From IMG/VR virus record IMGVR_UViG_3300010167_000013: DNA of 64,000 nt, one strand, 5' to 3'. Under the pieces are notes generated by a model that was not told the DNA's origin, made no database searches, and worked only from the letters and a program-made list of their open reading frames with translations. Numbering within the stretch: the stretch's first letter is position 1; each line of letters opens with the position of its first letter. Source of the stretch: a virus. Its lineage: Duplodnaviria; Caudoviricetes. Shown in pieces: positions 7,981 through 64,000 of the stretch. The position numbers and the translations under genes were made by a program.

Positions 7981-8020
7981 CCCACATTCACATCCTTTTC
8001 ATGAAATTTTATAAACTATG

Positions 8021-8200
8021 TATCACACACAAATAGAATATGGCATCCCTCTCAGGTTCCTGTGGTTAGACAGGCTATATTTCCGATATGCCCTATCGTA
8101 CTATTGTGCTTCTAATTTATTACTCCTAGTTCATTATTAAATATATTTTTATCCTATTAATCGTAATCCTTCTTTGAGAATATTTTTAGCAGCATTGTAG
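8021..8200 (-). ncRNA. TnpB omegaRNA (reRNA) with 3' guide TATTCTATTTGTGTGTGATA
   Basis: Downstream of tnpB: GTACGATAGGGCATATCGGAAATATAGCCTGT...CAGGAACCTGAGAGGGATGCCA fits the usual IS605 right-end scaffold pattern. The 5' boundary is approximate. Confidence 0.6.
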
Positions 8201-9279
8201 TCTCTATGGTGTTGGATACCACAGCTATCACAGGTCCAATGTTTCAGCCTCAACCCAACATCACCACGATTACCACAATTATTACAGGTCGTACTGGATG
8301 GGTAATACCTATCAACTTTCTGTAGTGTTCTCCCATACCACTCGCACTTGTATTCCAGCTGTCTTACTAGTTCACCTAGGGCTGTGTCATATATCGACTT
8401 ATTGATATCCTTGTACTTGGTTTTCATGCTTTGGATATCTAAATCTTCAATACAGATAATGTCATTGGTGTTAACTAGTGAACTAGTAACTTTGTGTAAT
8501 GTGTCATATCTCTGGTTAGTGATCTTCTCATATATTTTAGCTACCTTGATCCTAGCCTTGTTCCAGTTCTTACTACCTTTTACTTTCCTAGACAGTACTC
8601 TCTGAGCATTAGCTAGCTTGAGTTCATACTGCTTCAGATGCCTGTGGTTTTTGTATGTCTTTCCATTTGATGTAGTAATCAGCTTATTGATACCCAAATC
8701 TAACCCAATGGAGTTACCTGTGATAGGTAGAACCTTTGGTTCTACATCAGTACAACAGATAGAACAGTAGTACTTTCCACTAGGTACCTGTGATATAGTA
8801 GCATTCAGAATCCTACCAGAGATGTCACACCTTCCTCTAAACTTTACACTACCAAGTTTTGGTAGCTTGACAAAGTTACTCACTATCTGAATGTTATTAC
8901 CAGCAACATATTTAGTAGTATAGGACATACTCCTGTTCTTCTTACTCTTGAACCTAGGATAGCCCAGAGTGTCACCTAACTTTACTTTCCTGAAGAAGTT
9001 CTGAAAGGCCATATCTAGATTCTGCAGCGATGCCTGCAGTGCATGGGCATCCGGTTCTTGTAACCATTCCAATTCCTTCTTCAGCTTAGTTAACTCCCTA
9101 CTACAGCTATTGTATGTCATATAGCTCTTCTTCTCTTCATAGGTCTTATTCTCTTCATAGGTCTTATTCCTAAGGCATAAGAAATGGTTCCAAATGTACC
9201 TGCAACAACCAAATGTTTTCTGTATCTGTATTTGCTGTGAGTCATTTGGGTATATCCTAAACTTGTACGATCTATTCAT
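8149..9279 (-). CDS. tnpB: RNA-guided endonuclease TnpB
   Basis: N-terminal SYKFRIYP...KTFGCCRYIWN, RuvC-I GLDLG, RuvC-II IEDL, zinc finger CNNC...CDSC, RuvC-III RDYNAAKNI. Start ATG 9279 behind GGAGGTG. Contains an in-frame 18-bp duplication (NKTYEE x2, 9131-9166). Confidence 0.95.
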   Translation of the reverse strand: MNRSYKFRIYPNDSQQIQIQKTFGCCRYIWNHFLCLRNKTYEENKTYEEKKSYMTYNSCSRELTKLKKELEWLQEPDAHALQASLQNLDMAFQNFFRKVKLGDTLGYPRFKSKKNRSMSYTTKYVAGNNIQIVSNFVKLPKLGSVKFRGRCDISGRILNATISQVPSGKYYCSICCTDVEPKVLPITGNSIGLDLGINKLITTSNGKTYKNHRHLKQYELKLANAQRVLSRKVKGSKNWNKARIKVAKIYEKITNQRYDTLHKVTSSLVNTNDIICIEDLDIQSMKTKYKDINKSIYDTALGELVRQLEYKCEWYGRTLQKVDRYYPSSTTCNNCGNRGDVGLRLKHWTCDSCGIQHHRDYNAAKNILKEGLRLIG

Positions 9280-9301
9280 TATATTCTCACCTCCTACGTA
9301 T

Positions 9302-9310
9302 ATAATATAT
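9302..9310 (-). promoter_or_regulatory. Putative early promoter ATATATTAT driving tnpB
   Basis: Motif about 20 nt upstream of the tnpB start. A second variant (ATATATTCT) lies at 9333-9341. Confidence 0.55.
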
Positions 9311-9422
9311 AATCGAGAAATATGCATATCTAAGAATATATAATTACGTTTTACACTTCATTAGAAGTCTCCAGAACGAAGACATAAGTAATGACATCCC
9401 AATACCCAAGGAGGTTTCTATC

Positions 9423-21446: not shown

Positions 21447-21480
21447 TTACACAGTGGGAGCACGTGCTCCCACTGTGTAA
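21447..21480. terminator. Perfect palindrome / terminator
   Basis: TTACACAGTGGGAGCACGTGCTCCCACTGTGTAA. Confidence 0.7.
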
Positions 21481-24217: not shown

Positions 24218-24244
24218 TTGGGTGAGGATATTATCCTCACCCAA
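24218..24244. terminator. Inverted repeat / terminator
   Basis: TTGGGTGAGGATA-T-TATCCTCACCCAA. Confidence 0.65.
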
Positions 24245-29773: not shown

Positions 29774-31236
29774 GCGAACATCTCCTTCTTACTATCTCTG
29801 AGGTGTCTTTCGTACAGTAATTCAAATGTTCCATTCAACAATAACTTAGCCATTGACGTATCGGGAACAAGGAAATGATTTGTTATCTGCAAATTATGAA
29901 TTATGCATTCATTGATCCTCTTGAGGAATATAACAGCTCTATTCCTCATCTTCTTGCTATTCTTGAACATTGGACTTATTTGACCAGCCTGTGCTAATTC
30001 ATAGACTAGTGCCGAGATAGCTGAGAATGTTATTAATGCTCCTGCTCTGGTGGCATATGCCTCCATATTTTTTACCTTGGCAACATTCTCTGGAGAGGTA
30101 TCATTGATATTTAGCGATAGTAGATTTGAATTTCTTTCAAACATATATTTTGAATTGCGTTGCTTCGGAACTACCTTTCGATCAAAGATTGTACCTTCTA
30201 TCTTGCTATTCACAAGTGAATCTTCGTAGAACTTTGTGCTCAACATCCCAGTAGTCTTTGAACATACCCCATATGTTTTCCCATCGGGATGGAGTCCAAT
30301 GGTACTATACCCTCCGGAGCAACAACTATATCCAACATTATCAATGGTGGTATTCGGGTTTTCCATTTGATCGTATATTGTAGGGAATTCTTGGTCTAAC
30401 CATAGCATGGTATCATACAATGGTAAGAACAGCTGATCCCTATTTCTATCACTAATATCAAGTACCATCTTGACGAACTCAGCTAACTTCTTACCATCTT
30501 CTTGAGTGTATTCCCCAGGAGCAACAAAGTTTGGGATAGACATCATTTGAATATCTAAATTATTGGATGTTGGTATGTTATTCAATCCAACATGTAGATC
30601 CTCAAAGAACTTGTAGTATTTTATCACGGATTCTTCATCTACTAAAACATTTGTTATTGTGTCCATACATAGTGTAGATTTCGCGATTATTGATACACCA
30701 ACATTTCCTGGAACACTTGAGTCCAATAGATATACAAGAGGTTTGAGATTATTGACCACGGTCTCAGTTACCCCTGATTTCTGATTTGATATGAACAGTC
30801 TATGACGATCTGTTACCTCGGATGGTCCGTCAAGTGACACCTGAATATGGACATGAAACTCTCTGTTCATATCCTTGTATCTGTAGTTCTTCATTATGTC
30901 AACAAATCTACCTAATTCAGTAATATTGGTGGTGAGGTTAGTGAGAAGGGTAAAGTGATACAGATTCGGAAACTCATCCAAGTAGGTATCTAATTTGTCA
31001 TTGAGTAGGGACAGATTAAGGAGTAATTCTCCTCCAGTAATATATAGCTGGGTGAGGTGATGTCTGTTCTCTCCATAAATCTTCTTCAATGATTCAAGGA
31101 GGATATTCTCCTTCAGAGCTTTCCTGACTACTTTGTCGTAGTCAAAGATTGCTTTGTTTTTGTGAATGTAGCAATAATCGCACTTCAAGTTACATTTAGT
31201 GCTCAACGCAATGTGAACTACATTTGGTTCAATCAT
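29770..31236 (-). CDS. Radical SAM protein with reduced (twitch-like) auxiliary Cys domain
   Basis: CNLKCDYCY, ITGGE, LLTN, QVSLDGP...DRHR and CCSGG...GVC...EC. Likely start 31236 (ORF open to 31293). Confidence 0.85.
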   Translation of the reverse strand: MIEPNVVHIALSTKCNLKCDYCYIHKNKAIFDYDKVVRKALKENILLESLKKIYGENRHHLTQLYITGGELLLNLSLLNDKLDTYLDEFPNLYHFTLLTNLTTNITELGRFVDIMKNYRYKDMNREFHVHIQVSLDGPSEVTDRHRLFISNQKSGVTETVVNNLKPLVYLLDSSVPGNVGVSIIAKSTLCMDTITNVLVDEESVIKYYKFFEDLHVGLNNIPTSNNLDIQMMSIPNFVAPGEYTQEDGKKLAEFVKMVLDISDRNRDQLFLPLYDTMLWLDQEFPTIYDQMENPNTTIDNVGYSCCSGGYSTIGLHPDGKTYGVCSKTTGMLSTKFYEDSLVNSKIEGTIFDRKVVPKQRNSKYMFERNSNLLSLNINDTSPENVAKVKNMEAYATRAGALITFSAISALVYELAQAGQISPMFKNSKKMRNRAVIFLKRINECIIHNLQITNHFLVPDTSMAKLLLNGTFELLYERHLRDSKKEMFA

Positions 31237-41319: not shown

Positions 41320-44063
41320 TTGAGAGAGTTGGAAACAGAGACGTCTTAGTCAGAAATTACACCAGTAATTTCGACGTAAAGGAATTCATACAGAGCGTCC
41401 TCATACCAAAAGCATTCCCCAATGTTCCAATGAATAAACTCAATCTTGGATTCACAGGAGTGACATCCGAATACATATCCCAGGCTATTGAGGACTCATA
41501 TGCAACTGCTGCACTCATGCTAAACGAGTCATTCATCACCAGAGCTGTGCTACCTAACTCGATATATTCCGAGGCTTCATTGTTTGATCTTGGATATACG
41601 TTTGCTACTCCGTCCAAATGTAGCTTTGCTGTTCAGATATGGATGGAGGATATAATCAAACATTCTACCAGAGTAAGGAATACACCGACCAGTAGGTACA
41701 AGCTGGATAAAAATACAAAGTTACTACTTGGGAATAATTCATATCGTTTTGACTATGACATCTTCATTGATCATCAGTTCATTGATGGACGTAGAGCATT
41801 CAACGTATATTACGACATCACCGAGAATAATTCAATTGCTATCGTCACCAACAGATATGTCAGACACCAGGTGACCTCAATAGGATGGTTAGTATTATTC
41901 GTTGATCTACAAGAGTTTGATCGGAAGATAGAAGAGAATACAATCGCAGACAATCTGATTACTACTAATAGTGATATCATATTGAAATGGAGCAGACAGA
42001 TTGCTGGTATGGATCTAGTCTACATCACCCCTCGTGGTGAAAGACTTCCGATGAAAAAAAAGATTCAACATACTAGACCTGATCAAGATCCATTTTCATG
42101 GTATTCTTTCATCAATGATAACACGCTTCGATTGATATTCTCAGACAGAAGAGGGTTCTTCCAACCTGCATTCAATAGTAAAATTGAATCAACCATCTAC
42201 ACGTGCAGAGGAGCAATTTCCAACTTTGATGAGTATGACAATAAGTCGGCTGTTCCTGTACAGAGAACTGGAGAGGTGTTTGAATATAATGCTAATACCA
42301 GAATGGTTGCATTGTGTTACGGAGGATCCAAGGGAGGAACAGATAGAGGAAACATCGAACTACTGAGGGACGATGTAATTACAGCATATAACACCGTAAA
42401 GGTGTTGTCCACGGATCATGATTTGGATCTTTGGTTCAACAACTTTGCCAAACGTCATAACACAAAGGCTTGTTTCTTCAAGAGGAGGGATGATCCAACT
42501 GGGAAGCTCTTCTCCCAGTTTGTTGTGATAAACGACAACAGCTATGTGTATCCGACAAATACTCTCAGTATTGATGTTCAGCACGATCAATTTGATTTTG
42601 TGAACAGTGATGATTTAGGGAACAACAGGGAGTTCATCATCAAACCTGGTCATCTCTGGGAATATGTAGATGACAGTAGAGACACTGTGAGGATGGTTGA
42701 AGGAACAGAAGGATTGGCATTTGTGAGTGATGAAGCGTTACCTCCAATAACTACAGATAGACCATTCATGTTTGTCAACCCATTCTACATCAAGGTTCAT
42801 AGACAACCAACCCTGTCTGCTAATTATAATTACTTGATAGATCATACATCATGGCCTGATGACATTCCGATAGACACAGATGTATTCTATCAGTTCCAAT
42901 TGGCAACTTTGTCAATTGAAAGATCGTTGTCAAGAAAGCTGAATAACAAATACAGAATTCAGGTAATATGTGTTCCAGTAATAAGTCAGGATGGGAATAG
43001 CAAATACATTGAGGGAATCGGCAATGAGTTCCCAGTAGAAGGTAATGATCTACGCTTGATTCTAGTGACAAGATCAAGGTTGGATGGAGAAACAGGATAC
43101 ATCGAAATGAAACCTATTGAGCTCAGACCAGGTGGAGCTATCTTCTACGAAACGACAATATCAGTTCATGACAATCTGAGATCGGATATGATGCTAGAAG
43201 TTGACATTGATGAAACTCCAGGAATAACATCACTGATTGCAAATGGTCCTAGAGAAGGTGGAGTTTACATCGATTCTGCAGAAACCAGTTTTCATTTCCT
43301 GATAATGATGAGGGATCCAAAAAATACATCAACCACGAATTTGTACGGAAATGATACATTCCAAGGATATGCAATGGCAAACAGATTCGCCAATCAACAC
43401 AGAGATCTGATATTGTACAAGCCAATGACAATGATGAGATCTGTTGTTACATTTGCCGGTTACAACAACAACTTCAGTCTCAGAGGTACATTGACACCGT
43501 TATTGAAGTACGACGTACCACTTGATGAGGAGAAGATGTCGTATTTCATCAGAGCATTCACCGATCAGTATTCTGCTGTAGAACCAGTGTTGAAAAGACT
43601 GGATGGTAATTCATTCCTGGACTTCAAGTTATTCAACACATATGGTAGGTCCAATAACTACTACATAGGACCTGCAGATGATTCAGACGTACTGTGGGAT
43701 TCCAACATCTTACTGGACAATGTTCATGTGAAGATCAAATTCCGCATGGCAGTGCATGATAGATCGGCTTATGTTCAAACTGTGGATGCTGTGATCAACG
43801 AGATAAAACTATTTTTCGAATCCTTGGATAGTGGGGAGCTTAGGGATATTCATGTATCAGACTTGATTCATATCATCAAGGAGAGGCATCCAAACGTAAA
43901 CTACATTCGTTTTGTGGGATTCAATGATTACGATGCAAATAAGCAATCGATATTCGTAAAATACGATGACATTTCGGAATTACCAGCAAGTAGCATTCAA
44001 TGCCATGTTCCAGAGCTAGTAAGAGTCTCCAGAGAAAGCATAGAAATAATCGAAGAAGTATAA
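41316..44063 (+). CDS. Baseplate wedge subunit (T4 gp6-like)
   Basis: NESFITRAVLPNSIYSEA...GY.FATPS and GGTDRGNIELLR match gp6-type motifs. Confidence 0.7.
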   Translation: MIERVGNRDVLVRNYTSNFDVKEFIQSVLIPKAFPNVPMNKLNLGFTGVTSEYISQAIEDSYATAALMLNESFITRAVLPNSIYSEASLFDLGYTFATPSKCSFAVQIWMEDIIKHSTRVRNTPTSRYKLDKNTKLLLGNNSYRFDYDIFIDHQFIDGRRAFNVYYDITENNSIAIVTNRYVRHQVTSIGWLVLFVDLQEFDRKIEENTIADNLITTNSDIILKWSRQIAGMDLVYITPRGERLPMKKKIQHTRPDQDPFSWYSFINDNTLRLIFSDRRGFFQPAFNSKIESTIYTCRGAISNFDEYDNKSAVPVQRTGEVFEYNANTRMVALCYGGSKGGTDRGNIELLRDDVITAYNTVKVLSTDHDLDLWFNNFAKRHNTKACFFKRRDDPTGKLFSQFVVINDNSYVYPTNTLSIDVQHDQFDFVNSDDLGNNREFIIKPGHLWEYVDDSRDTVRMVEGTEGLAFVSDEALPPITTDRPFMFVNPFYIKVHRQPTLSANYNYLIDHTSWPDDIPIDTDVFYQFQLATLSIERSLSRKLNNKYRIQVICVPVISQDGNSKYIEGIGNEFPVEGNDLRLILVTRSRLDGETGYIEMKPIELRPGGAIFYETTISVHDNLRSDMMLEVDIDETPGITSLIANGPREGGVYIDSAETSFHFLIMMRDPKNTSTTNLYGNDTFQGYAMANRFANQHRDLILYKPMTMMRSVVTFAGYNNNFSLRGTLTPLLKYDVPLDEEKMSYFIRAFTDQYSAVEPVLKRLDGNSFLDFKLFNTYGRSNNYYIGPADDSDVLWDSNILLDNVHVKIKFRMAVHDRSAYVQTVDAVINEIKLFFESLDSGELRDIHVSDLIHIIKERHPNVNYIRFVGFNDYDANKQSIFVKYDDISELPASSIQCHVPELVRVSRESIEIIEEV

Positions 44064-44100
44064 AAAATAGACTCCGGGAATGTCCCCGGAGTCTATTTTT
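44063..44100. terminator. Bidirectional terminator
   Basis: AAAAATAGACTCCGGG...CCCGGAGTCTATTTTT. Confidence 0.7.
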
Positions 44101-44121
44101 ATCACACTTTGAAAAGGATGT

Positions 44122-44487
44122 TTAGGAGGTTTCTCCATATTTCGCTTCTCTGAAATTCTCCCCCATCTCAGTTACAATAGCAGATGCCAGTTGGCCACGA
44201 TAACTATATCCATCTCCATCCTCCGACTCATCTAATTCAGTCTCCTGAACTTCTATTTGGACAAGTTTGTGATACAAATCATTGTACATTTTTTCCGATA
44301 TAGAATCTATATCAGATATACCAAACTCAGCTTTCAAGAAGCGGGCAGCTAGTTCATCAAATATATATCTATATTCTTCTGCCGATAATGAGGGAGAATG
44401 GAGATTCTCCGAGAGGAACTGGACACCCTGCTCAATTGACCATACTTCAGTTTCCATCAGATTTGACTTTAGCATAGTTTCACCCAT
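44122..44487 (-). CDS. Acidic hypothetical protein (possible immunity protein)
   Basis: Directly downstream of the toxin-like gene. Confidence 0.55.
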   Translation of the reverse strand: MGETMLKSNLMETEVWSIEQGVQFLSENLHSPSLSAEEYRYIFDELAARFLKAEFGISDIDSISEKMYNDLYHKLVQIEVQETELDESEDGDGYSYRGQLASAIVTEMGENFREAKYGETS

Positions 44488-44490
44488 TCC

Positions 44491-45030
44491 TTATTGAGTT
44501 AATGTCATCAACTTTCCAGTTTGATGGCTAACTATCACCCGCATGTTTCCTTTACAATAAGCCATACCTTCTGTGGCAGCAACAGGTGTTGAGGTTTTTA
44601 ATGCTTCGATTACATCGTTAAGGTTAAACAAACGCTCCAGCATTCTTTCATATGGATGTTGACCATTGATGCTTTTTATTGTTATTCCATCGGATGTTAC
44701 TATTCCAATTATTGAGTTACGGAAATTGCTTAAACCTTTTCGGTACTCGTCCTCTGTTAGTGTTAGTACTACCTCCCTAGTTCCAAATCGATATATTTCA
44801 ATATTGCCATCTGCATTCTTTGTTTTTGGACTCTCTATGAGATATTCATTTTCATCCAAATTCTCCAGGCTTGATTCATGAAACATCATATGGAACAGAT
44901 TATCAGCAAATAGTATTTCGTACTCTGGTTCCATCCATGGGAATGAGGTTACCCTGGATACGATTCCACATTTCCCAATTTGAGATCCTTTTATAATTTT
45001 AACTTCAGTTCCAATTGCGTATTTATTCAT
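44491..45030 (-). CDS. KOW/SH3-like domain fused to a putative RNase toxin-like domain (DUF4258/MuF-toxin-like)
   Basis: N-terminal IGTEVKIIKG...GKCGIV; C-terminal HPYERMLER...DVIEALK...Y.KG..RVIVS..TGKLMT. Confidence 0.45.
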   Translation of the reverse strand: MNKYAIGTEVKIIKGSQIGKCGIVSRVTSFPWMEPEYEILFADNLFHMMFHESSLENLDENEYLIESPKTKNADGNIEIYRFGTREVVLTLTEDEYRKGLSNFRNSIIGIVTSDGITIKSINGQHPYERMLERLFNLNDVIEALKTSTPVAATEGMAYCKGNMRVIVSHQTGKLMTLTQ

Positions 45031-45038
45031 CTCATTAT

Positions 45039-45554
45039 TTATAAATAAGGAAGATGTCTCAGTAATACATCAATTTCCATGTCCATTATTTCGTCGAATG
45101 TCCACGGACATTCTTTCGGCATACTGTTCATTGAACTAACATGATACGATTTAGGATCAGCATCTAGTATTCTTTCAAATTCGTTGAATGCCCGCCGATA
45201 TGCTAGAGAGATATTTTTCTCCACCAGACAAAGAACATTTACATCAGGATCTTCAGTATCTCTGTCAGTTATATTGTCTATTTCTTCTCTGAACAACTTT
45301 ATCTCTTCAGATAATTTCCTTCGAGTCAAGGTGTCATTTCCATACTTGAGCTTGAAAATGTGAATAATAATCTGCTTCATGAATTTGTTGGCTGGCTTGG
45401 CATCTCTCTTAGTTCCTTCTAAGTAGAGTTCTTCGTCAAAGGCCTCTGTGAATGTTTTACCTTGCGACATTGCAATTAGCGCTCTCTTTATCCTAGCGAG
45501 CTCTTCAGTATGTCGATTGACTCTCTCCATCATCATTGTAAGTTCTTGATCCAT
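45039..45554 (-). CDS. DUF29-like protein
   Basis: IIIHIFKLKYG...MPKECPWTFDEIM. Confidence 0.6.
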   Translation of the reverse strand: MDQELTMMMERVNRHTEELARIKRALIAMSQGKTFTEAFDEELYLEGTKRDAKPANKFMKQIIIHIFKLKYGNDTLTRRKLSEEIKLFREEIDNITDRDTEDPDVNVLCLVEKNISLAYRRAFNEFERILDADPKSYHVSSMNSMPKECPWTFDEIMDMEIDVLLRHLPYL

Positions 45555-45565
45555 AGGTATCCTCC

Positions 45566-46111
45566 TCAGGCTTTCCCACGCAGGCCATTGAGTAATTGTT
45601 TTATTAATTCTTCAACATTATTAGTCATCAGCTCTTTTAGAGACCAAGGACATTTCTCGGGAATTAATCTAACCCCATCTTTCAGATCAGGATACATTTG
45701 AGAACTATTTTGGTAGAACGTTACACCAATACTATATGCGCTATTGATAGATTTCTCAGCGTATCTAATCAGTGATGTATATCCAGGGTTCTCCATCCAT
45801 TCTAGTAGCAATATCAATTCATTCCTAGAACTGCGAAAGTGATTCATCCATTGACGCCTATTACTCCGAAGTGTTAGCTCGCTATCACAATATGCCAATT
45901 TTAACAGGTGCTCTACCATTCTAGCGATGTGTTTCTTTGTTTCTCTTTGCTCACTTTTTGACTCAATGAATATTTCATCGTAGGCATCTCTAACAGATTC
46001 ATCCGATTGTAATCCATTTTTCATTGCTTCTATTGCTACCAACATCCTCTGGCAATATTCCAACATTCTCTGGATCATTTCATTTCTTTCTTCCTCAGTA
46101 GTATTTTTCAT
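45566..46111 (-). CDS. DUF29-like protein
   Basis: MVEHLLKLAY...RRQW...R...IPEKCPWSLKELM. Start ATG 46111 behind AGGAG; early promoter motif at 46139-46147. Confidence 0.65.
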   Translation of the reverse strand: MKNTTEEERNEMIQRMLEYCQRMLVAIEAMKNGLQSDESVRDAYDEIFIESKSEQRETKKHIARMVEHLLKLAYCDSELTLRSNRRQWMNHFRSSRNELILLLEWMENPGYTSLIRYAEKSINSAYSIGVTFYQNSSQMYPDLKDGVRLIPEKCPWSLKELMTNNVEELIKQLLNGLRGKA

Positions 46112-46154
46112 ATTATATTCTCTCCTTTGATATATCATATAATATATAATTATC

Positions 46155-46190
46155 TGATGTAGTAACCTCCAGAGGGAGGTTACTACATCA
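46155..46190. terminator. 16-bp perfect inverted repeat / terminator
   Basis: TGATGTAGTAACCTCC-AGAG-GGAGGTTACTACATCA. Confidence 0.7.
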
Positions 46191-46214
46191 TTCATGAATA
46201 TAAAAATATTTATT

Positions 46215-46535
46215 CTGTACCATCGGAGTGGACTGGCCTATCCGGAATAAGCCAGCCCATGCTCAATAGTTTTTCAACCGATGGGTGTTACTATTTGTTA
46301 CTGGCCCGGGGATTGGTGGGCCTGCTCTTCCTTTATCAGATATCAGATATCTTAAGGAACCCCACTATGACTACCAGGGTTCGTACCGGCTTACGCTTCC
46401 TACGGTTACGAACCCTGGTTCGTTGACACTTACTATGCGTCCATATTCGTGCCAACTTATGCGAAGGAGAATAGACCTGGTACCGTAACAGTCGGAACTC
46501 TGCCGCTGCCATATGGTTTAACTATCCTCTCTCGT
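46215..46535 (-). ncRNA. Candidate structured non-coding RNA (~320 nt), family not recognised
   Basis: GC-richer intergenic block with at least five stems whose G-U pairs favour the minus strand. Bounded by an ATATATTCT motif (46545-46553) and a terminator (46155-46190). Confidence 0.55.
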
Positions 46536-46587
46536 CACAAAAATAGAATATATAATTTTGTGAAAGGGATATACGATTTATTTATAT

Positions 46588-46893
46588 TTATGATATGACC
46601 CCAGCAACAATTAATTTAGCCTCGAAGTCTGACAGTTGGTGAGCTATCTGTTCGTTGGTTATTGTTGGAAGGGGCTGACATTGCGGAGTTTGTTCAGGAA
46701 AATAAAATGTATCTGTTTCTTCATTATATCTCATCCATGGCACTATCTCGGCGTTTTGAGGGTGCTTGGAAATATCAAAAATGTGGACTGTATCATTATC
46801 GGTAGGCCACATGCCTAATGATTCGTCTCCGATAAGGTTAACGAAACCGTCGGATTTAAGGATTTGAACATATTTACGTTCGAAATCTGCCAT
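46588..46893 (-). CDS. Tail fibre assembly-like protein
   Basis: Follows the Gly-rich fibre. Pattern YVQI...G.V...W.YNEETDTF..P. Confidence 0.55.
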   Translation of the reverse strand: MADFERKYVQILKSDGFVNLIGDESLGMWPTDNDTVHIFDISKHPQNAEIVPWMRYNEETDTFYFPEQTPQCQPLPTITNEQIAHQLSDFEAKLIVAGVIS

Positions 46894-46908
46894 TTATTTA
46901 TCCCCCTA

Positions 46909-48354
46909 TTACCATTCGAAAAATACGATTCCGTTACCGCCTGCGCCGCCCAGTCCGCCTGTTCCACCCGTTGTCTGGGTTCCAGCTCCGCCTCCCCCGC
47001 CGCCTGCACCGTAACCACCACCGCCGCCTCCGCCTCCGCCAGTAGAGTTTGTATAATTACCGCCCCCATTCCCGCCTTTTGAAATCGCGCCCCCACCGCC
47101 TCCGCCGCCTGGTGCCATACTAACGGTGCTCGCCATACCAGAGCCCAAAGACCCGCCCAATGAACCAGCAGTACCATTCGTACTCGAGCCACCAAAACGA
47201 GTTCCACTGCCACCCTTGCCTCCGCCAGAATAGCCTATGCCTCCTGTTGTAATTAAATTTGTGGTTTGATTACCTCCGCTACCTCCGCCTCCGCCCCCAC
47301 CGCCTCCGCCGCCTCTTCCAGTGCCCCCATCTCCGCCATTACCACCGCTATATCCCGAAATTATATCGCCGCCAGCACCGCCTCCTCCTCCTCCACCGCC
47401 GAAGCCCCCAATGCCGCCGCCACCTCCATTACGGGCTGGAGTGGCTTGACCCTGCAACCCATTCAAGCCATTCGTAGCGTAGATTGAGGGTATAGAAATA
47501 TTCCCTTTGATTAATGTTATTGTACCAAGCCCAGCACCGCTCAACACAGTATTTCCCGCACCTACCGTAATAGATATATTTGCTCCTGCTGTAACGGTAT
47601 AAACACGGTCAACGCTTTCTCCAGCTTTACCGCCAACGCCAGCGATTTTATCCGTTGTAGGATTACCTCCATCTCCACCCGACGCAAAAGCTAATATCTT
47701 AATAGCAGTAACTCCTGTCGGCACGGTAAACGTCCCGTTCGCGGTAAACACGGCTTTTCTCGCGCCTGTTCCACCAGAACTACTACTTGACGAATTCAAT
47801 ATTGCATTTAGTTTCGCCATTGCAGTACCCGCCGACGCAGTACCGCCCGTATCACCTGTAACACCTAAATTACTTTGCGCGGCTCTAGTACTAATAGCTG
47901 CATCTAAATTCCCAGCTCTAGCATCTGTCCAAGTATTTACAAATTTATTTGCTATCCATTTGATTATGCTGAACACACTACTGCCATTATTAGCAGCAGT
48001 ATCTTCAGAATTCCCAATTGATTCACTAATGTCATCTATGTCTTGCTGCATATTAGAAAAATTAACAGAAACTAATATCTCACCCTCCAAATCGGGTAAT
48101 ATATTCAAGTCAATAACAAATGTCTTGACAGTCTCAACTTCTTCAGGTTCAATGGTTACTGTAGTCACCATACCACTAGCCTTGTTCCCAATGTAAATCT
48201 CAAACTGGTATTCAATTGGGTTCTCATCGTCATTCGGAGGAATAACAATTGCACAGCTGTACTTCTTGTCACCTATTGGTACTAGTGGATAAAATGCATC
48301 TAGATCCAGTGAATACACTTTCACTTCTGGTATCAATGTAACAACTTTAGCCAT
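46909..48354 (-). CDS. Glycine-rich tail fibre/receptor-binding protein
   Basis: AGNLDAAISTRA and VFTANGTFTVPTGVTAIKILAFASGGDGG...GG.GGNGIVFFEW (glycine-rich fibre domain). Confidence 0.75.
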   Translation of the reverse strand: MAKVVTLIPEVKVYSLDLDAFYPLVPIGDKKYSCAIVIPPNDDENPIEYQFEIYIGNKASGMVTTVTIEPEEVETVKTFVIDLNILPDLEGEILVSVNFSNMQQDIDDISESIGNSEDTAANNGSSVFSIIKWIANKFVNTWTDARAGNLDAAISTRAAQSNLGVTGDTGGTASAGTAMAKLNAILNSSSSSSGGTGARKAVFTANGTFTVPTGVTAIKILAFASGGDGGNPTTDKIAGVGGKAGESVDRVYTVTAGANISITVGAGNTVLSGAGLGTITLIKGNISIPSIYATNGLNGLQGQATPARNGGGGGIGGFGGGGGGGGAGGDIISGYSGGNGGDGGTGRGGGGGGGGGGGSGGNQTTNLITTGGIGYSGGGKGGSGTRFGGSSTNGTAGSLGGSLGSGMASTVSMAPGGGGGGGAISKGGNGGGNYTNSTGGGGGGGGGYGAGGGGGGAGTQTTGGTGGLGGAGGNGIVFFEW

Positions 48355-48432
48355 AATATCACATCCCCTATGATGATTTTAAGATTAACTTAGGGTGGAT
48401 GGTTAATATAATGACAAAAAAAGAACTGAGAC

Positions 48433-48876
48433 TCAGTTCTTTTCTTTTTCTAGGTATGTGAATAAATCTAATGTTTGAATGTTCCCATACCAATGCTGAA
48501 GCATTATTTGATGATGTTTCGAAATGTAATTGAACATTTCAGTTTTTTTCTTTCCCTTCAATTCCCTTTCGACTTTGACAAGCTGTGTTCCTTTCAAAAG
48601 AATTCTTGGATTCTCTTCGATACTTACTGATATCATATTTCCATCGGGCATCAAAACCTTCACGCGAGGTATGCTATGAGTATTAGTTCTGGTTTTCCCA
48701 AGATCATCAAACCATAACCCGTAAGGTAGCCCAGAGCTTTTTGCCGGCCAATTTGCCATCTCAAATATTCCATCTTTGTACATGGCAATATTTTCCAACA
48801 CTTGTAACTGAAATGCTTTCATTTCAACAGTTGCTACTTCTTTCCCGAGTTTTTCCAAATCGTTCATTTGGTACAC
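48433..48876 (-). CDS. DUF4160-like protein
   Basis: EMAN....SGLPYGLWFD.......HSIPRVKV...SVSI...P...HW pattern. Confidence 0.5.
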   Translation of the reverse strand: MYQMNDLEKLGKEVATVEMKAFQLQVLENIAMYKDGIFEMANWPAKSSGLPYGLWFDDLGKTRTNTHSIPRVKVLMPDGNMISVSIEENPRILLKGTQLVKVERELKGKKKTEMFNYISKHHQIMLQHWYGNIQTLDLFTYLEKEKN

Positions 48877-48910
48877 CTCCTAATTATATTTTTATTTTAT
48901 CTCATATTCA

Positions 48911-48957
48911 TAATATATAATTCTAAGTATAATATATAATTCTAAGTATAATATATA
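48911..48957 (-). repeat. 19-bp tandem repeat (about 2.4 copies), each copy carrying the early promoter motif
   Basis: TAATATATAATTCTAAGTA x2 plus TAATATATA. Confidence 0.8.
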
Positions 48958-49024
48958 CGTTTAATCCGTTAACCAACCTAATAAAGGTGAACAAGTAATA
49001 TTATATAAAGAAGAGGTGTGAAAG

Positions 49025-63170: not shown

Positions 63171-63579
63171 CACTACCTTCACATGGTTCGCAAGTCCATG
63201 CAGTACATTTAAGTACTTCTTATGCTCTCGCATAACGACATCAGAATCTCACTGATGAAGTGGCATTATGCCAGTTGAGACTATATCTTTAACTACACGA
63301 TGTGTAGCAGAGCTAAGCTTTTCCATTTAAGGGATTCTCACCCGCCAGCATCAGCTTCTGGCCGTACTCCTGTTGGCATTTCAGCCCAAGGGATAGTCGT
63401 TGAACCTTCCACCTACGTTGTAGGTAGCTTGGCTGCGTATGATTATCTCTATCAACTACGTTTTTACAATACCCAGATCGTTATACCTGGTGCTACACCA
63501 TCTATCACTAGTGGCTGCTGTAGTAGTTGCCTAACGAGATGTTCCCGCAATTAACATAGTTTAACGAGTACAAAATTTC
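63171..63579 (-). mobile_element. Group I intron (409 nt, no ORF)
   Basis: P AATTGCGGGAA, Q AATCATACGCAGC, R GTTCAACGACTA, S AAGATATAGTC. P1 GAGTAU/GUACUC has a U-G pair at the 5' splice site, P10 is UUUU/GAAA, and the terminal G is at 63171. Removal restores the reading frame. Confidence 0.92.
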
Positions 63580-64000
63580 ATACTCTCCAAACCTTATGGG
63601 AGTCTCAGAAAAGGGCGCCTTAGAGATCTTTGACTCGTGAGACTTTTCTGGTAGAGATTCATCAGAAATAGCTCCAGCCGATCTTACCGAAAATCCCCTT
63701 TCCCCACTCTGCTTCAGTAGCAGAATATATTGATACCCAACATAGTCTTTCCCAATGTAGATATCCCTTCCCCAATTTGGTTTTGGAACAAATATGTTGT
63801 ACGGTTTTATTACATCGCCATACTTCTCATATATTTCAATGATAGCATCACGTAGATTAATTTCCTTGCTGAATGCCTCCCATCTAATGTATATTCCTTG
63901 ATTAGTCATGATGAGTCCATTGCTGTCTAGAGAGATTGAGGATTCTACAAACTTTCTCTTCTCTCTATCTGACAATGTCTTGTACAGTGCTCGTAGATCT
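63580..64000 (-). CDS. Multisubunit RNA polymerase beta-type subunit, upstream exon (runs off the window)
   Basis: YILLLKQ...FSVRSAG...LPEK...PIRFGEY. The frame is open to the window edge. Confidence 0.85.

What the first reader, a model, noticed from the sequence alone, without database searches (positions are those of the whole stretch)
46155..46563. Unrecognised ~320-nt structured RNA with its own promoter and terminator
Seen on the minus strand: stems GGCAGCGG/CCGACTGTT, GTTGGCAC/GTGTCAAC, a perfect 13-bp ACCAGGGTTCGTA/TACGAACCCTGGT, GTGGG..TTCCTT/AAGGAA..CCCAC, and CCATCGG/CCGATGG enclosing TGGGCTGGCTTAT/ATAGGCCAGTCCA. CCATAT near the 5' end could pair with the loop sequence ATATGG as a pseudoknot. 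The promoter motif sits inside an inverted repeat (TCACAAAA/TTTTGTGA) and is the site matched by the TnpB guide. I see no tRNA, tmRNA, SRP or RNase P hallmarks. A 58-codon ORF (46336-46512) is an alternative reading. Inference: a novel phage ncRNA (decoy, antitoxin or ribozyme).
Basis: partly seen in the sequence, partly recalled or inferred. Interest (0 to 1): 0.7.

Follow-up and report, generated by a model that had tools for sequence, protein, structure and literature searches.

The report
Orphan folded early RNA, jumbo phage
An uncultured giant phage related to Bacillus phage AR9 carries a self-contained, probably untranslated gene for a tightly folded RNA of about 385 bases behind one of its early promoters, but no related phage has it, so its reality as a functional RNA and its job remain unproven.

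Summary
On the minus strand, 46558-46155 reads as one unit. It has a copy of the phage's AR9-type early promoter motif, about 345 nt of GC-enriched sequence and a 16-bp perfect hairpin of this phage's terminator type. The stretch is the strongest folding outlier in the 64-kb window, and it folds better on the minus strand. Three hairpins are far above chance.

It matches no Rfam family. It is not a tRNA, a tmRNA or a group I intron; Rfam does find this phage's own intron, which serves as a positive control. The 58-codon ORF has a poor ribosome-binding site, atypical codon usage and no homologues.

No homologue was found anywhere, so covariation cannot be tested. Searches covered 12 related IMG/VR phage records (five complete), five known AR9-like phages, 150 Clostridia genomes and pattern scans. 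Expression could not be checked.

One new lead: collinear fragments resemble the 3' half of a tRNA-Met that a relative expresses from the same promoter type. This suggests descent from a tRNA cassette.

Verdict: a plausible lineage-specific phage ncRNA, of moderate interest. This scan has noted comparable early-promoter RNA cassettes in other jumbo phages.

The parts
46545..46558 (-). Early (virion-RNA-polymerase type) promoter motif AAATTATATATTCT. The predicted start is G at 46538, 6 nt after the motif.
   Evidence: Ten copies of ATTATATAT[TC]NT lie in the window. All are on the minus strand and most sit in front of genes. The AR9 early consensus is AAATATATATTAT-(6N)-G (PMC5312081). The same 12-mer is the most over-represented one in relative G007. 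The start site is inferred, not shown.
46535..46563 (.). Inverted repeat TCACAAAA(A)TA / TA(A)TTTTGTGA enclosing the promoter motif
   Evidence: pair I5: 11 nt, 91% complementary. Only its last four bases would be transcribed from the predicted start, so it is a DNA-level feature, or a hairpin in read-through RNA from upstream.
46459..46538 (-). Domain 1: a basal helix (GAGAGGAUAG / CUAUUCUCC) closing the GGCAGCGG/CCGACUGUU hairpin
   Evidence: z -2.1, modest. It contains the start codon and the weak Shine-Dalgarno sequence of the 58-codon ORF within paired regions.
46422..46456 (-). Domain 2: an 8-bp stem, an internal loop GAA / AGUAA (loop-E-like by eye), a 4-bp stem and a GACG loop
   Evidence: -14.9 kcal/mol, z -4.75, 0 of 200 shuffles reach it.
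46373..46419 (-). Domain 3: a perfect 13-bp stem with an apical GUAA tetraloop. Its outer part reads as a T-arm (CCAGGG-UUCG...GAA-CCCUGG) with about 26 nt inserted in the loop.
   Evidence: I3; z -5.45. The 10-mer CCAGGGTTCG is identical to the T-arm of the tRNA-Met of relative G007.
46290..46366 (-). Domain 4: a UUCCUU/AAGGAA hairpin with GAUAUCU repeats, followed by GGCCC-ACCAAUCCCC-GGGCC (46303-46322)
   Evidence: z -0.4, not above chance. AGGCCCACCA at 46314-46323 equals the acceptor 3' strand plus ACCA of the G007 tRNA-Met.
46219..46286 (-). Domain 5: a 7-bp outer stem, an 18-nt internal loop and a 14-bp apical stem with G.U pairs
   Evidence: I12; z -4.2.
46155..46190 (-). A 16-bp perfect hairpin with a 4-nt loop and no U-tract: the terminator of the unit
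   Evidence: I2; z -8.1. The same kind of perfect hairpin closes other gene blocks in this phage. Twice it is directly followed by an early motif, at 21447-21480 and 24218-24244. The generic terminator scan finds nothing because there is no T-run.
46139..46152 (-). A second early promoter motif, TAATTATATATTAT. It serves the DUF29 operon, whose ATG is at 46111.
   Evidence: It shows that the downstream operon does not depend on the RNA's promoter.
46336..46512 (-). The 58-codon ORF; rejected as a gene
   Evidence: The GAGG lies 13 nt before the ATG, against 7-10 nt in neighbouring genes. The codon score is -0.19, against +0.10 to +0.27 for real small genes, and 8 of 10 Arg codons are CGN. Only low-complexity hits came from 1.84 billion proteins. 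No gene was called here in the second contig.
46203..46216 (+). Inverted near-copy of the promoter motif (AAAATATTTATTCT, 2 mismatches) on the far side of the folded core
   Evidence: Its meaning is unknown: a weak antisense promoter, the terminal inverted repeat of an old insertion, or chance in AT-rich DNA.

Best explanation
The stretch is a self-contained early gene for a non-coding RNA of an uncultured AR9/PBS1-like jumbo phage, probably from the gut or rumen.

Shown by the sequence:
- A copy of the phage's repeated early promoter motif at 46558-46545.
- About 345 nt of GC-enriched sequence (46-49% GC against about 37% around it).
- This sequence folds on the minus strand into a row of hairpins, three of them far more stable than chance.
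- A 16-bp perfect hairpin of the phage's terminator type, directly followed by the next early promoter.

Inferred:
- The virion RNA polymerase starts at G46538 within minutes of infection and stops at the hairpin.
- The product is an untranslated RNA of roughly 385 nt.
- It is optional cargo in a variable spot beside the fibre genes, not part of the family's core.
- Short collinear matches to a relative's tRNA-Met cover the variable loop, the T-arm, the acceptor 3' strand and ACCA. They suggest the unit descends from a tRNA cassette of the kind relatives express from the same promoter, and has been rebuilt by hairpin insertions.

Most likely mode of action (inference, weakest step): a stable folded RNA acting in trans early in infection by binding proteins. 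Candidate partners are host tRNA- or RNA-handling factors. Self-cleavage and long antisense pairing look less likely.
For: Promoter:
- The motif census puts ten copies in the window, all on the minus strand.
- The motif matches the AR9 early consensus (PMC5312081).
- The same 12-mer is the top over-represented word in relative G007.

Terminator:
- The hairpin belongs to the class seen at other gene-block ends, and twice that class is followed directly by an early motif.

Folding:
- z -9.2 for the whole stretch.
- z -5.5 on the minus strand against -1.9 on the plus strand for the core.
- 12 G.U pairs.
- Top outlier of 1700 window-strands.
- Per-hairpin z scores of -4.2 to -5.5.

Not coding:
-.

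Independent unit:
- The DUF29 operon has its own promoter copy.

Accessory nature:
- Relatives with 60-79% identity in the adjacent 915-aa protein carry different genes at this spot.

tRNA ancestry lead:
- In G007 the only ORF-free, GC-rich, structured early unit is a tRNA-Met.
- A collinear 10-mer pair is reached by 6 of 3000 shuffles.
- In a gapped chain alignment, 1 of 500 shuffles reaches the tRNA-Met score, and 4 of 500 do when the best of all ten tRNAs is taken.
Against: - No homologue was found, so there is no covariation and no evidence of purifying selection.
- The architecture is a row of separate hairpins without a closing multi-helix junction. That is weaker evidence for a compact functional fold.
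- Two stems are perfect palindromes that could be young DNA-level inverted duplications.
- The promoter copy carries C instead of A at the penultimate position. The AR9 polymerase is reported to be sensitive to single deviations.
- The tRNA similarity is modest. Several unrelated stretches of the window (nine other window-strands in about four places) score as high or higher in the chain test. A covariance model built from ten... seven tRNAs of related phages finds nothing (best 5 bits).
Confidence: 0.5

Rival explanations
1. A transcribed relic. The unit is a decaying tRNA cassette (tRNA-Met-like and perhaps a second tRNA) broken up by palindromic insertions. It keeps its promoter and terminator but has no present function.
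For: - Collinear tRNA-Met fragments.
- Two hairpins read as T-arms with insertions in the loop.
- tRNA clusters are patchy accessory cargo in this phage family: 2 of 8 records carry them.
- The unit is absent from all relatives.
- No tRNA fold is left.
Against: - Decay should erode pairing. Here the stems are longer and better than in a tRNA, and G.U pairs favour the transcribed strand.
- The stretch is the most structured place in the window.
- The tRNA similarity itself is only modestly significant.
Confidence: 0.2
2. A cis-acting element rather than a gene. It would be a long structured leader or attenuator of the DUF29 operon, or a 3'-UTR or insulator that stops read-through from the upstream fibre operon.
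For: - It is co-oriented with the DUF29 operon and lies immediately upstream of it.
- No strong hairpin separates the 101-aa gene (ends 46588) from the unit, so late transcripts may run into it.
- The terminal hairpin lacks a U-tract.
Against: - The operon has its own consensus early promoter between the hairpin and its start codon.
- The hairpin-then-promoter arrangement recurs elsewhere as plain punctuation.
- No upstream segment can pair with the terminator arm in place of its partner; no matching 11-mer was found.
- Rfam gives no riboswitch or T-box hit.
Confidence: 0.1
3. The remnant of a small mobile element: a MITE- or PATE-like insertion, possibly related to the IS200/IS605 element elsewhere in the genome.
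For: - Inverted near-copies of the AT-rich motif flank the core, at 46545-46558(-) and 46203-46216(+).
- The GC content differs from the surroundings.
- The element is absent from relatives.
- A TnpB element sits in a paralogous promoter ending in the same ...ATTCT.
Against: - It is single-copy in the window by covariance model and by BLAST.
- It shows no similarity to the ends of the TnpB element.
- Nothing similar was found in the phage records, IMG/VR or the metagenome collection by the pattern scans and BLAST that were run.
Confidence: 0.07
4. A gene for a 58-aa, very basic small protein, with the RNA structure being incidental.
For: An ATG-initiated ORF lies within the unit, and early promoters in this phage often drive small genes.
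Against: - Poor Shine-Dalgarno spacing (13 nt), and the start codon lies inside a stem.
- The codon-usage score is negative and in the lowest 2% of ORFs of similar size, and the Arg codons are CGN-dominated.
- An exhaustive HMMER search gives only repetitive low-complexity hits.
- Gene callers did not call it.
- About 180 nt of strong structure lie beyond its stop codon.
Confidence: 0.04
5. A DNA-level site, such as a replication origin, a packaging site or a protein-binding array made of palindromes and short direct repeats.
For: - Several perfect palindromes, and short direct repeats (GATATCT x2.5, AGTAACA x2) in an intergenic region.
Against: - The folding asymmetry between strands and the 12 G.U pairs.
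- The stretch is bracketed by a promoter and a terminator in one orientation.
Confidence: 0.05

Closest known systems
Early (virion RNA polymerase) transcription units of Bacillus phage AR9/PBS1 (Lavysh et al. 2017, PMC5312081)
   Same: They share a near-identical AT-rich promoter motif followed by 6 nt and a G start, hairpin terminators, and promoter copies dispersed in front of early genes.
   Different: AR9 early units encode proteins, and one tRNA gene is known. This unit has no credible ORF. The phage shares only 22-24% identity with AR9 in a conserved structural protein.
Phage tRNA genes and tRNA clusters, here the tRNA-Met(CAT) of relative IMG/VR record G007
   Same: Both are ORF-free, GC-enriched, structured units behind the same early motif. 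They share collinear fragments: CAGGT, CCAGGGTTCG and GCAGGCCCACCA.
   Different: There is no cloverleaf. ARAGORN, Rfam RF00005 and a covariance model of seven tRNAs of related phages all fail. The 5' acceptor strand is missing, and about 130 nt of extra hairpins interrupt the matches.
Stable non-tRNA RNAs of phage tRNA regions (T4 species 1 and 2, also called RNA C and D) and phi29 packaging RNA. This comparison rests on my own knowledge and was not tested here.
   Same: They are phage-encoded, promoter-driven, stable folded RNAs of 120-175 nt. Their function is unknown (T4) or is to bind protein (phi29).
   Different: There is no sequence or model match; the phi29 pRNA family is in Rfam and did not hit. 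This RNA is larger, and there is no phi29-type packaging system here.
Large ornate phage RNAs ROOL and GOLLD (Rfam)
   Same: They are phage-borne, GC-enriched, ORF-free structured RNAs of unknown role.
   Different: There is no Rfam match. This RNA is about half their size and is a row of hairpins rather than a multi-junction fold.
Group I introns of the same phage
   Same: Both are structured RNAs of 300-400 nt in the same genome.
   Different: Rfam RF00028 finds the intron at 63260-63606(-) at 44.6 bits but finds nothing in this stretch at E<=10. This unit interrupts no gene and has its own promoter.
Other early-promoter RNA cassettes of jumbo phages noted earlier by this scan (e1-5656752, e1-5496703). 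These are AI notes and unchecked.
   Same: They share the same layout: an early promoter, a folded ORF-free RNA and a terminator. They are optional and vary between relatives.
   Different: There is no sequence similarity to them. Those notes report RNA-seq support or relatives, and this case has neither.

Membership tests
tRNA | Cloverleaf with acceptor, D, anticodon and T arms, recognised by tRNA models | tested here: not met
   ARAGORN at default settings finds none in the window. At an 80% threshold it gives only a poor pseudo-tRNA with mismatched acceptor and T stems. Rfam RF00005 gives no hit at E<=10. Model R3, built from seven tRNAs of related phages, scores at best 5 bits, E 0.33.
tRNA-derived sequence (ancestry, not membership) | Collinear sequence similarity to a tRNA gene beyond chance | tested here: inconclusive
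   A pair of collinear 10-mers to the G007 tRNA-Met is reached by 6 of 3000 shuffles. The gapped chain score is 32.4 against 18.1 +/- 3.4; 4 of 500 shuffles reach it when the best of all ten tRNAs is taken. However, the region ranks only about 10th of 1482 real window-strands.
tmRNA (standard or two-piece) | tRNA-like domain plus a tag reading frame that ends in a hydrophobic or alanine-rich tail | tested here: not met
   ARAGORN finds none at default or at a 70% threshold, permuted forms included. No Rfam tmRNA family hits. The frames after GGGCC give no tag-like peptide (read).
Group I intron | Match to the catalytic core model, and interruption of a gene | tested here: not met
   There is no RF00028 hit here, while the phage's own intron is found. 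The flanking ORFs are complete and unrelated.
Any Rfam 15 family (riboswitches, ribozymes, SRP, RNase P, 6S, pRNA, ROOL, GOLLD, HEARO and others) | Score at or above the family's gathering threshold | tested here: not met
   There are no gathering-level hits in the window. Within the core the best hits are noise: DUF2693 RNA at 13 bits against a threshold of 81.
TnpB omega RNA / IS200-IS605 end | Lies at the 3' end of tnpB, or resembles the element's ends; a guide follows the right end | tested here: not met
   tnpB is at 8149-9327(-), 37 kb away. There is no similarity to its flanks beyond the promoter motif. After ...TTCT, the guide-like flank matches only 8 of 16 positions (read).
Type III antitoxin RNA (ToxI-like) | Tandem direct repeats upstream of an endoribonuclease toxin gene | tested here: not met
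   There are no repeat units beyond GAUAUCU x2.5. The downstream proteins hit no PADLOC model, and in Pfam only DUF29.
AR9-type early transcription unit | Early promoter consensus followed by 6 nt and a purine start, with a hairpin terminator | tested here: met
   The motif differs from this phage's own consensus at one position. G follows at +7, and a terminator-class hairpin closes the unit. Actual transcription was not tested.

The most novel reading that the evidence does not exclude
The RNA is a re-purposed tRNA descendant. It is made in the first minutes of infection and displays T-arm-like and ...ACCA-like modules on a scaffold of stable hairpins. In this reading it acts as a decoy or sponge for host factors that recognise tRNA shape, such as tRNA-cleaving defence nucleases or tRNA-processing enzymes. 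It would be one instance of a wider habit of AR9-like jumbo phages of keeping interchangeable early RNA cassettes.
Probability: 0.1. Interest if true: 0.7.

Novelty: new member of a known kind. Interest (0 to 1): 0.35.

Why it matters
If the RNA is real, it adds to a growing picture. Jumbo phages with their own RNA polymerases appear to express not only proteins and tRNAs but also lineage-specific folded RNAs from their very first promoters. A tRNA-derived origin would show one way such RNAs arise. As it stands, this is a single-lineage candidate without covariation or expression data. Its main value is as a precisely bounded target (promoter, predicted start, terminator) for metatranscriptome mapping, and as one more example for a comparative survey of early RNA cassettes.

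Tried and rejected
- **Rfam:** gathering thresholds over the whole window, and E-value mode on 1 kb and on 216 nt, gave only noise.
- **tRNA and tmRNA finders:** default and relaxed ARAGORN gave nothing usable.
- **BLAST against 50,697 phage records:** no match.
- **Exact-pattern scans of IMG/VR and JGI metagenome contigs:** four patterns taken from the hairpins gave no match.
- **Covariance models of the two halves (R1, R2):**
  - no paralogue in the window;
  - none in JD-Fnp1, JD-Fnp7, AR9, LY01 or LPJP1;
  - none in three Logan relatives at the syntenic place;
  - none in 12 IMG/VR relatives, five of them complete;
  - none in 5 plus 150 Clostridia genomes;
  - none in the tRNA islands of G007 and G010 with filters off.
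- **Neighbour proteins as anchors:** the DUF29 protein has only itself in 5.8 billion proteins. The 101-aa protein has one 57% relative on a 775-bp contig, with a gene rather than an RNA downstream.
- **Template/variable repeat or internal duplicate:** no similarity to the fibre genes or to anything else in the window.
- **Antisense targets in the window:** only chance-level 11-13-mers.
- **The TnpB-guide idea:** reduced to promoter paralogy.

Full report
**Context**

The window belongs to a 178.8-kb contig. It is a distant member of the AR9/PBS1 group of jumbo phages.
- The adjacent 915-aa structural protein is 22-24% identical to proteins of AR9, PBS1, Staphylococcus S6-like phages and Fusobacterium JD-Fnp phages.
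- The same protein is 60-79% identical to 270-odd proteins from uncultured phages in metagenomes, on contigs of up to 300 kb. One of these carries a Ruminococcus label.
- The window contains a TnpB gene, whose nearest relatives are in Clostridia.
- It also contains a group I intron at 63260-63606(-), which Rfam detects at 44.6 bits.

**The observation**

Folding of the whole region:
- The 409-nt stretch folds at -154 kcal/mol, z -9.2.
- The core without the terminal hairpin (46215-46538) has z -5.5 on the minus strand and only -1.9 on the plus strand.
- 12 of its 108 predicted pairs are G.U and would be A.C on the other strand.
- I scanned the whole window in 300-nt steps on both strands and corrected for GC content. 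46126-46425(-) is the most extreme of 1700 window-strands. Most other outliers are terminator hairpins.

Folding by domain:

| Part | Description | z |
|---|---|---|
| Domain 2 | 8-bp stem with inner stem | -4.75 |
| Domain 3 | perfect 13 bp | -5.45 |
| Domain 5 | 7 + 14 bp | -4.2 |
| Terminal hairpin | 16 bp, perfect | -8.1 |
| Domain 1 | basal helix plus hairpin | -2.1 |

Domain 4 is therefore not above chance. The proposed pseudoknot cannot be tested without homologues.

**A separate transcription unit**

- The motif ATTATATAT[TC]NT occurs ten times in the window, always on the minus strand and mostly in front of genes.
- It is nearly the AR9 early consensus AAATATATATTAT-(6N)-G, which is read by the virion RNA polymerase (PMC5312081).
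- Its core is the most over-represented 12-mer in a 292-kb relative, G007.
- The copy at 46558-46545 is followed after 6 nt by G46538, the predicted start.
- This phage ends its gene blocks with long perfect hairpins that lack U-tracts. Two of them, at 21447-21480 and 24218-24244, are directly followed by an early motif.
- The 16-bp hairpin at 46190-46155 shows the same arrangement with the motif at 46152-46139, which serves the DUF29 operon (ATG at 46111).

So the folded stretch has its own promoter and terminator, and the downstream operon does not depend on it. No comparable hairpin separates the unit from the 101-aa gene upstream. Late read-through from the fibre operon into the unit is therefore possible.

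**Not coding**

- The only ORF of note has 58 codons.
- Its GAGG lies 13 nt from the ATG, against 7-10 nt in neighbouring genes. Both elements sit in predicted stems.
- Its codon-usage score is -0.19, against +0.10 to +0.27 for eight real small genes of the phage.
- Eight of its ten Arg codons are CGN, whereas the phage prefers AGA and AGG.
- An exhaustive HMMER search of 1.84 billion proteins returned only repetitive Arg-rich proteins.
- No gene was called in this gap on the second contig that carries the locus.

**Not a known RNA**

- There is no Rfam hit at gathering level in the window, and only noise in E-value mode. The phage's own group I intron serves as a positive control.
- ARAGORN finds no tRNA or tmRNA. 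With thresholds lowered to 80% it gives only a poor pseudo-tRNA.

**No homologues**

- BLAST against phage records found nothing.
- Four exact-pattern scans of IMG/VR and of metagenome contigs found nothing.
- Two covariance models covering the RNA also found nothing. They were run against the window, five known AR9-like phages, three Logan relatives, twelve IMG/VR relatives (five complete) and 155 Clostridia genomes.
- Relatives carry other genes directly downstream of the conserved 915/919-aa gene. The RNA, the DUF29 cassette and the fibre module therefore lie in a variable spot.
- The DUF29 neighbour has no relative in 5.8 billion proteins.

Expression could not be examined either.

**A lead on origin**

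- In G007, only one early motif is followed by ORF-free, GC-rich, structured sequence, and that sequence is a tRNA-Met(CAT) gene.
- tRNA clusters are patchy in the family: 2 of 8 records carry them.
- The RNA here contains, in the same order as that tRNA, CAGGT (variable loop), CCAGGGTTCG (T-arm) and GCAGGCCCACCA (acceptor 3' strand plus ACCA). Inserted hairpins separate these pieces.
- Domain 3 reads as the naturally palindromic T-arm CCAGGG-UUCG..GAA-CCCUGG with about 26 nt inserted in its loop. This explains much of its perfect stem.
- The hairpin GGCCC-ACCAAUCCCC-GGGCC looks like the junction of two tandem tRNA genes.

Statistics for the lead:
- The pair of collinear 10-mers is reached by 6 of 3000 shuffles.
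- The gapped chain score is reached by 1 of 500 shuffles against tRNA-Met, and by 4 of 500 when the best of all ten tRNAs is taken.
- Against real sequence from the same window, the region ranks only about tenth of 1482.
- A covariance model of the relatives' tRNAs finds nothing.

I take descent from a tRNA cassette as a reasonable but unproven lead. The stretch is not a tRNA.

**The TnpB remark**

- The sequence after the right end of the tnpB element (ATATTCTATTTGTGTG...) resembles the RNA's promoter and start (ATATTCTATTTTTGTG...).
- The reason is that the element sits inside another copy of the same ...ATTCT promoter variant. The left flank at 9346-9333 carries the motif.
- Beyond the motif, only 8 of 16 positions agree.
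- An earlier follow-up note of this scan reached the same reading.

**Reading**

- **Best supported (0.5):** a stand-alone early gene for a non-coding RNA of about 385 nt. It is lineage-specific cargo, possibly tRNA-derived, acting in trans as a folded, protein-binding RNA. That last step is inference.
- **Main rival (0.2):** the same unit is a transcribed relic with no function.
- **Lesser rivals:** a cis-acting leader or insulator, a mobile-element remnant, a small basic protein, or a DNA-level site.
- Nothing supports a ribozyme or an antitoxin.

The scan has noted similar early-promoter RNA cassettes in other jumbo phages. These have no sequence similarity to this one, and they are unchecked leads, not evidence.

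Noticed in passing
window 48910-48961 (-): Three early-promoter motif copies lie in tandem at a 19-nt spacing (ACGTATATATTAT, then ATTATATATTAT twice) in front of the 147-aa gene. Several other promoter copies carry a CGTAT box about 19 nt upstream, at 46575, 21446 and 16913, which looks like half of an upstream motif copy.
   Followed up: partly
window 8015-8036 and 9333-9346 (-): The tnpB element (8149-9327) splits an early promoter of the ...ATTCT variant. It also has its own consensus early motif at 9313-9302, just before its start codon, so it is probably expressed early.
   Followed up: partly
window 63260-63606 (-): A group I intron is detected by Rfam RF00028 at 44.6 bits, just under the gathering score of 50 (E 9e-10). 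I used it here as a positive control.
   Followed up: partly
L103 7163-7310 (-), which is G007 47163-47310: In a 292-kb relative, an early promoter motif drives a tRNA-Met(CAT) gene. Three more tRNAs (Asn, Gln, Lys) follow within 2 kb. Long ORF-free spacers between them contain tRNA-like pieces that ARAGORN does not call.
   Followed up: partly
L116 1233-1251 (-), which is G007 44954-44972: The 19-mer CGGCAGAGTCCAGACTGTT matches domain 1 of the RNA at 17 of 19 positions. It lies about 250 nt downstream of tRNA-Lys in the relative's tRNA island. The helix it forms in the window RNA is not conserved there.
   Followed up: partly
window 44063-48900, compared with L086-L088, L126 and L127: The place directly downstream of the conserved 915/919-aa structural gene holds different cassettes in every relative examined: fibre genes of different lengths, small ORFs, and here the DUF29 operon plus the RNA. 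It looks like a recombination hot spot beside the fibre genes.
   Followed up: partly
window 31104-31114: An 11-nt stretch of the RNA (UAUUCUCCUUC, anti-Shine-Dalgarno-like) is exactly complementary to the minus-strand sequence GAAGGAGAAUA. That sequence may be the true ribosome-binding site of the radical-SAM gene. It is probably a generic SD/anti-SD match.
   Followed up: no
window 44491-45030 (-): The 179-aa protein of the DUF29 operon gives weak matches to Photorhabdus beta-propeller lectin repeats (E 4e-5).
   Followed up: partly
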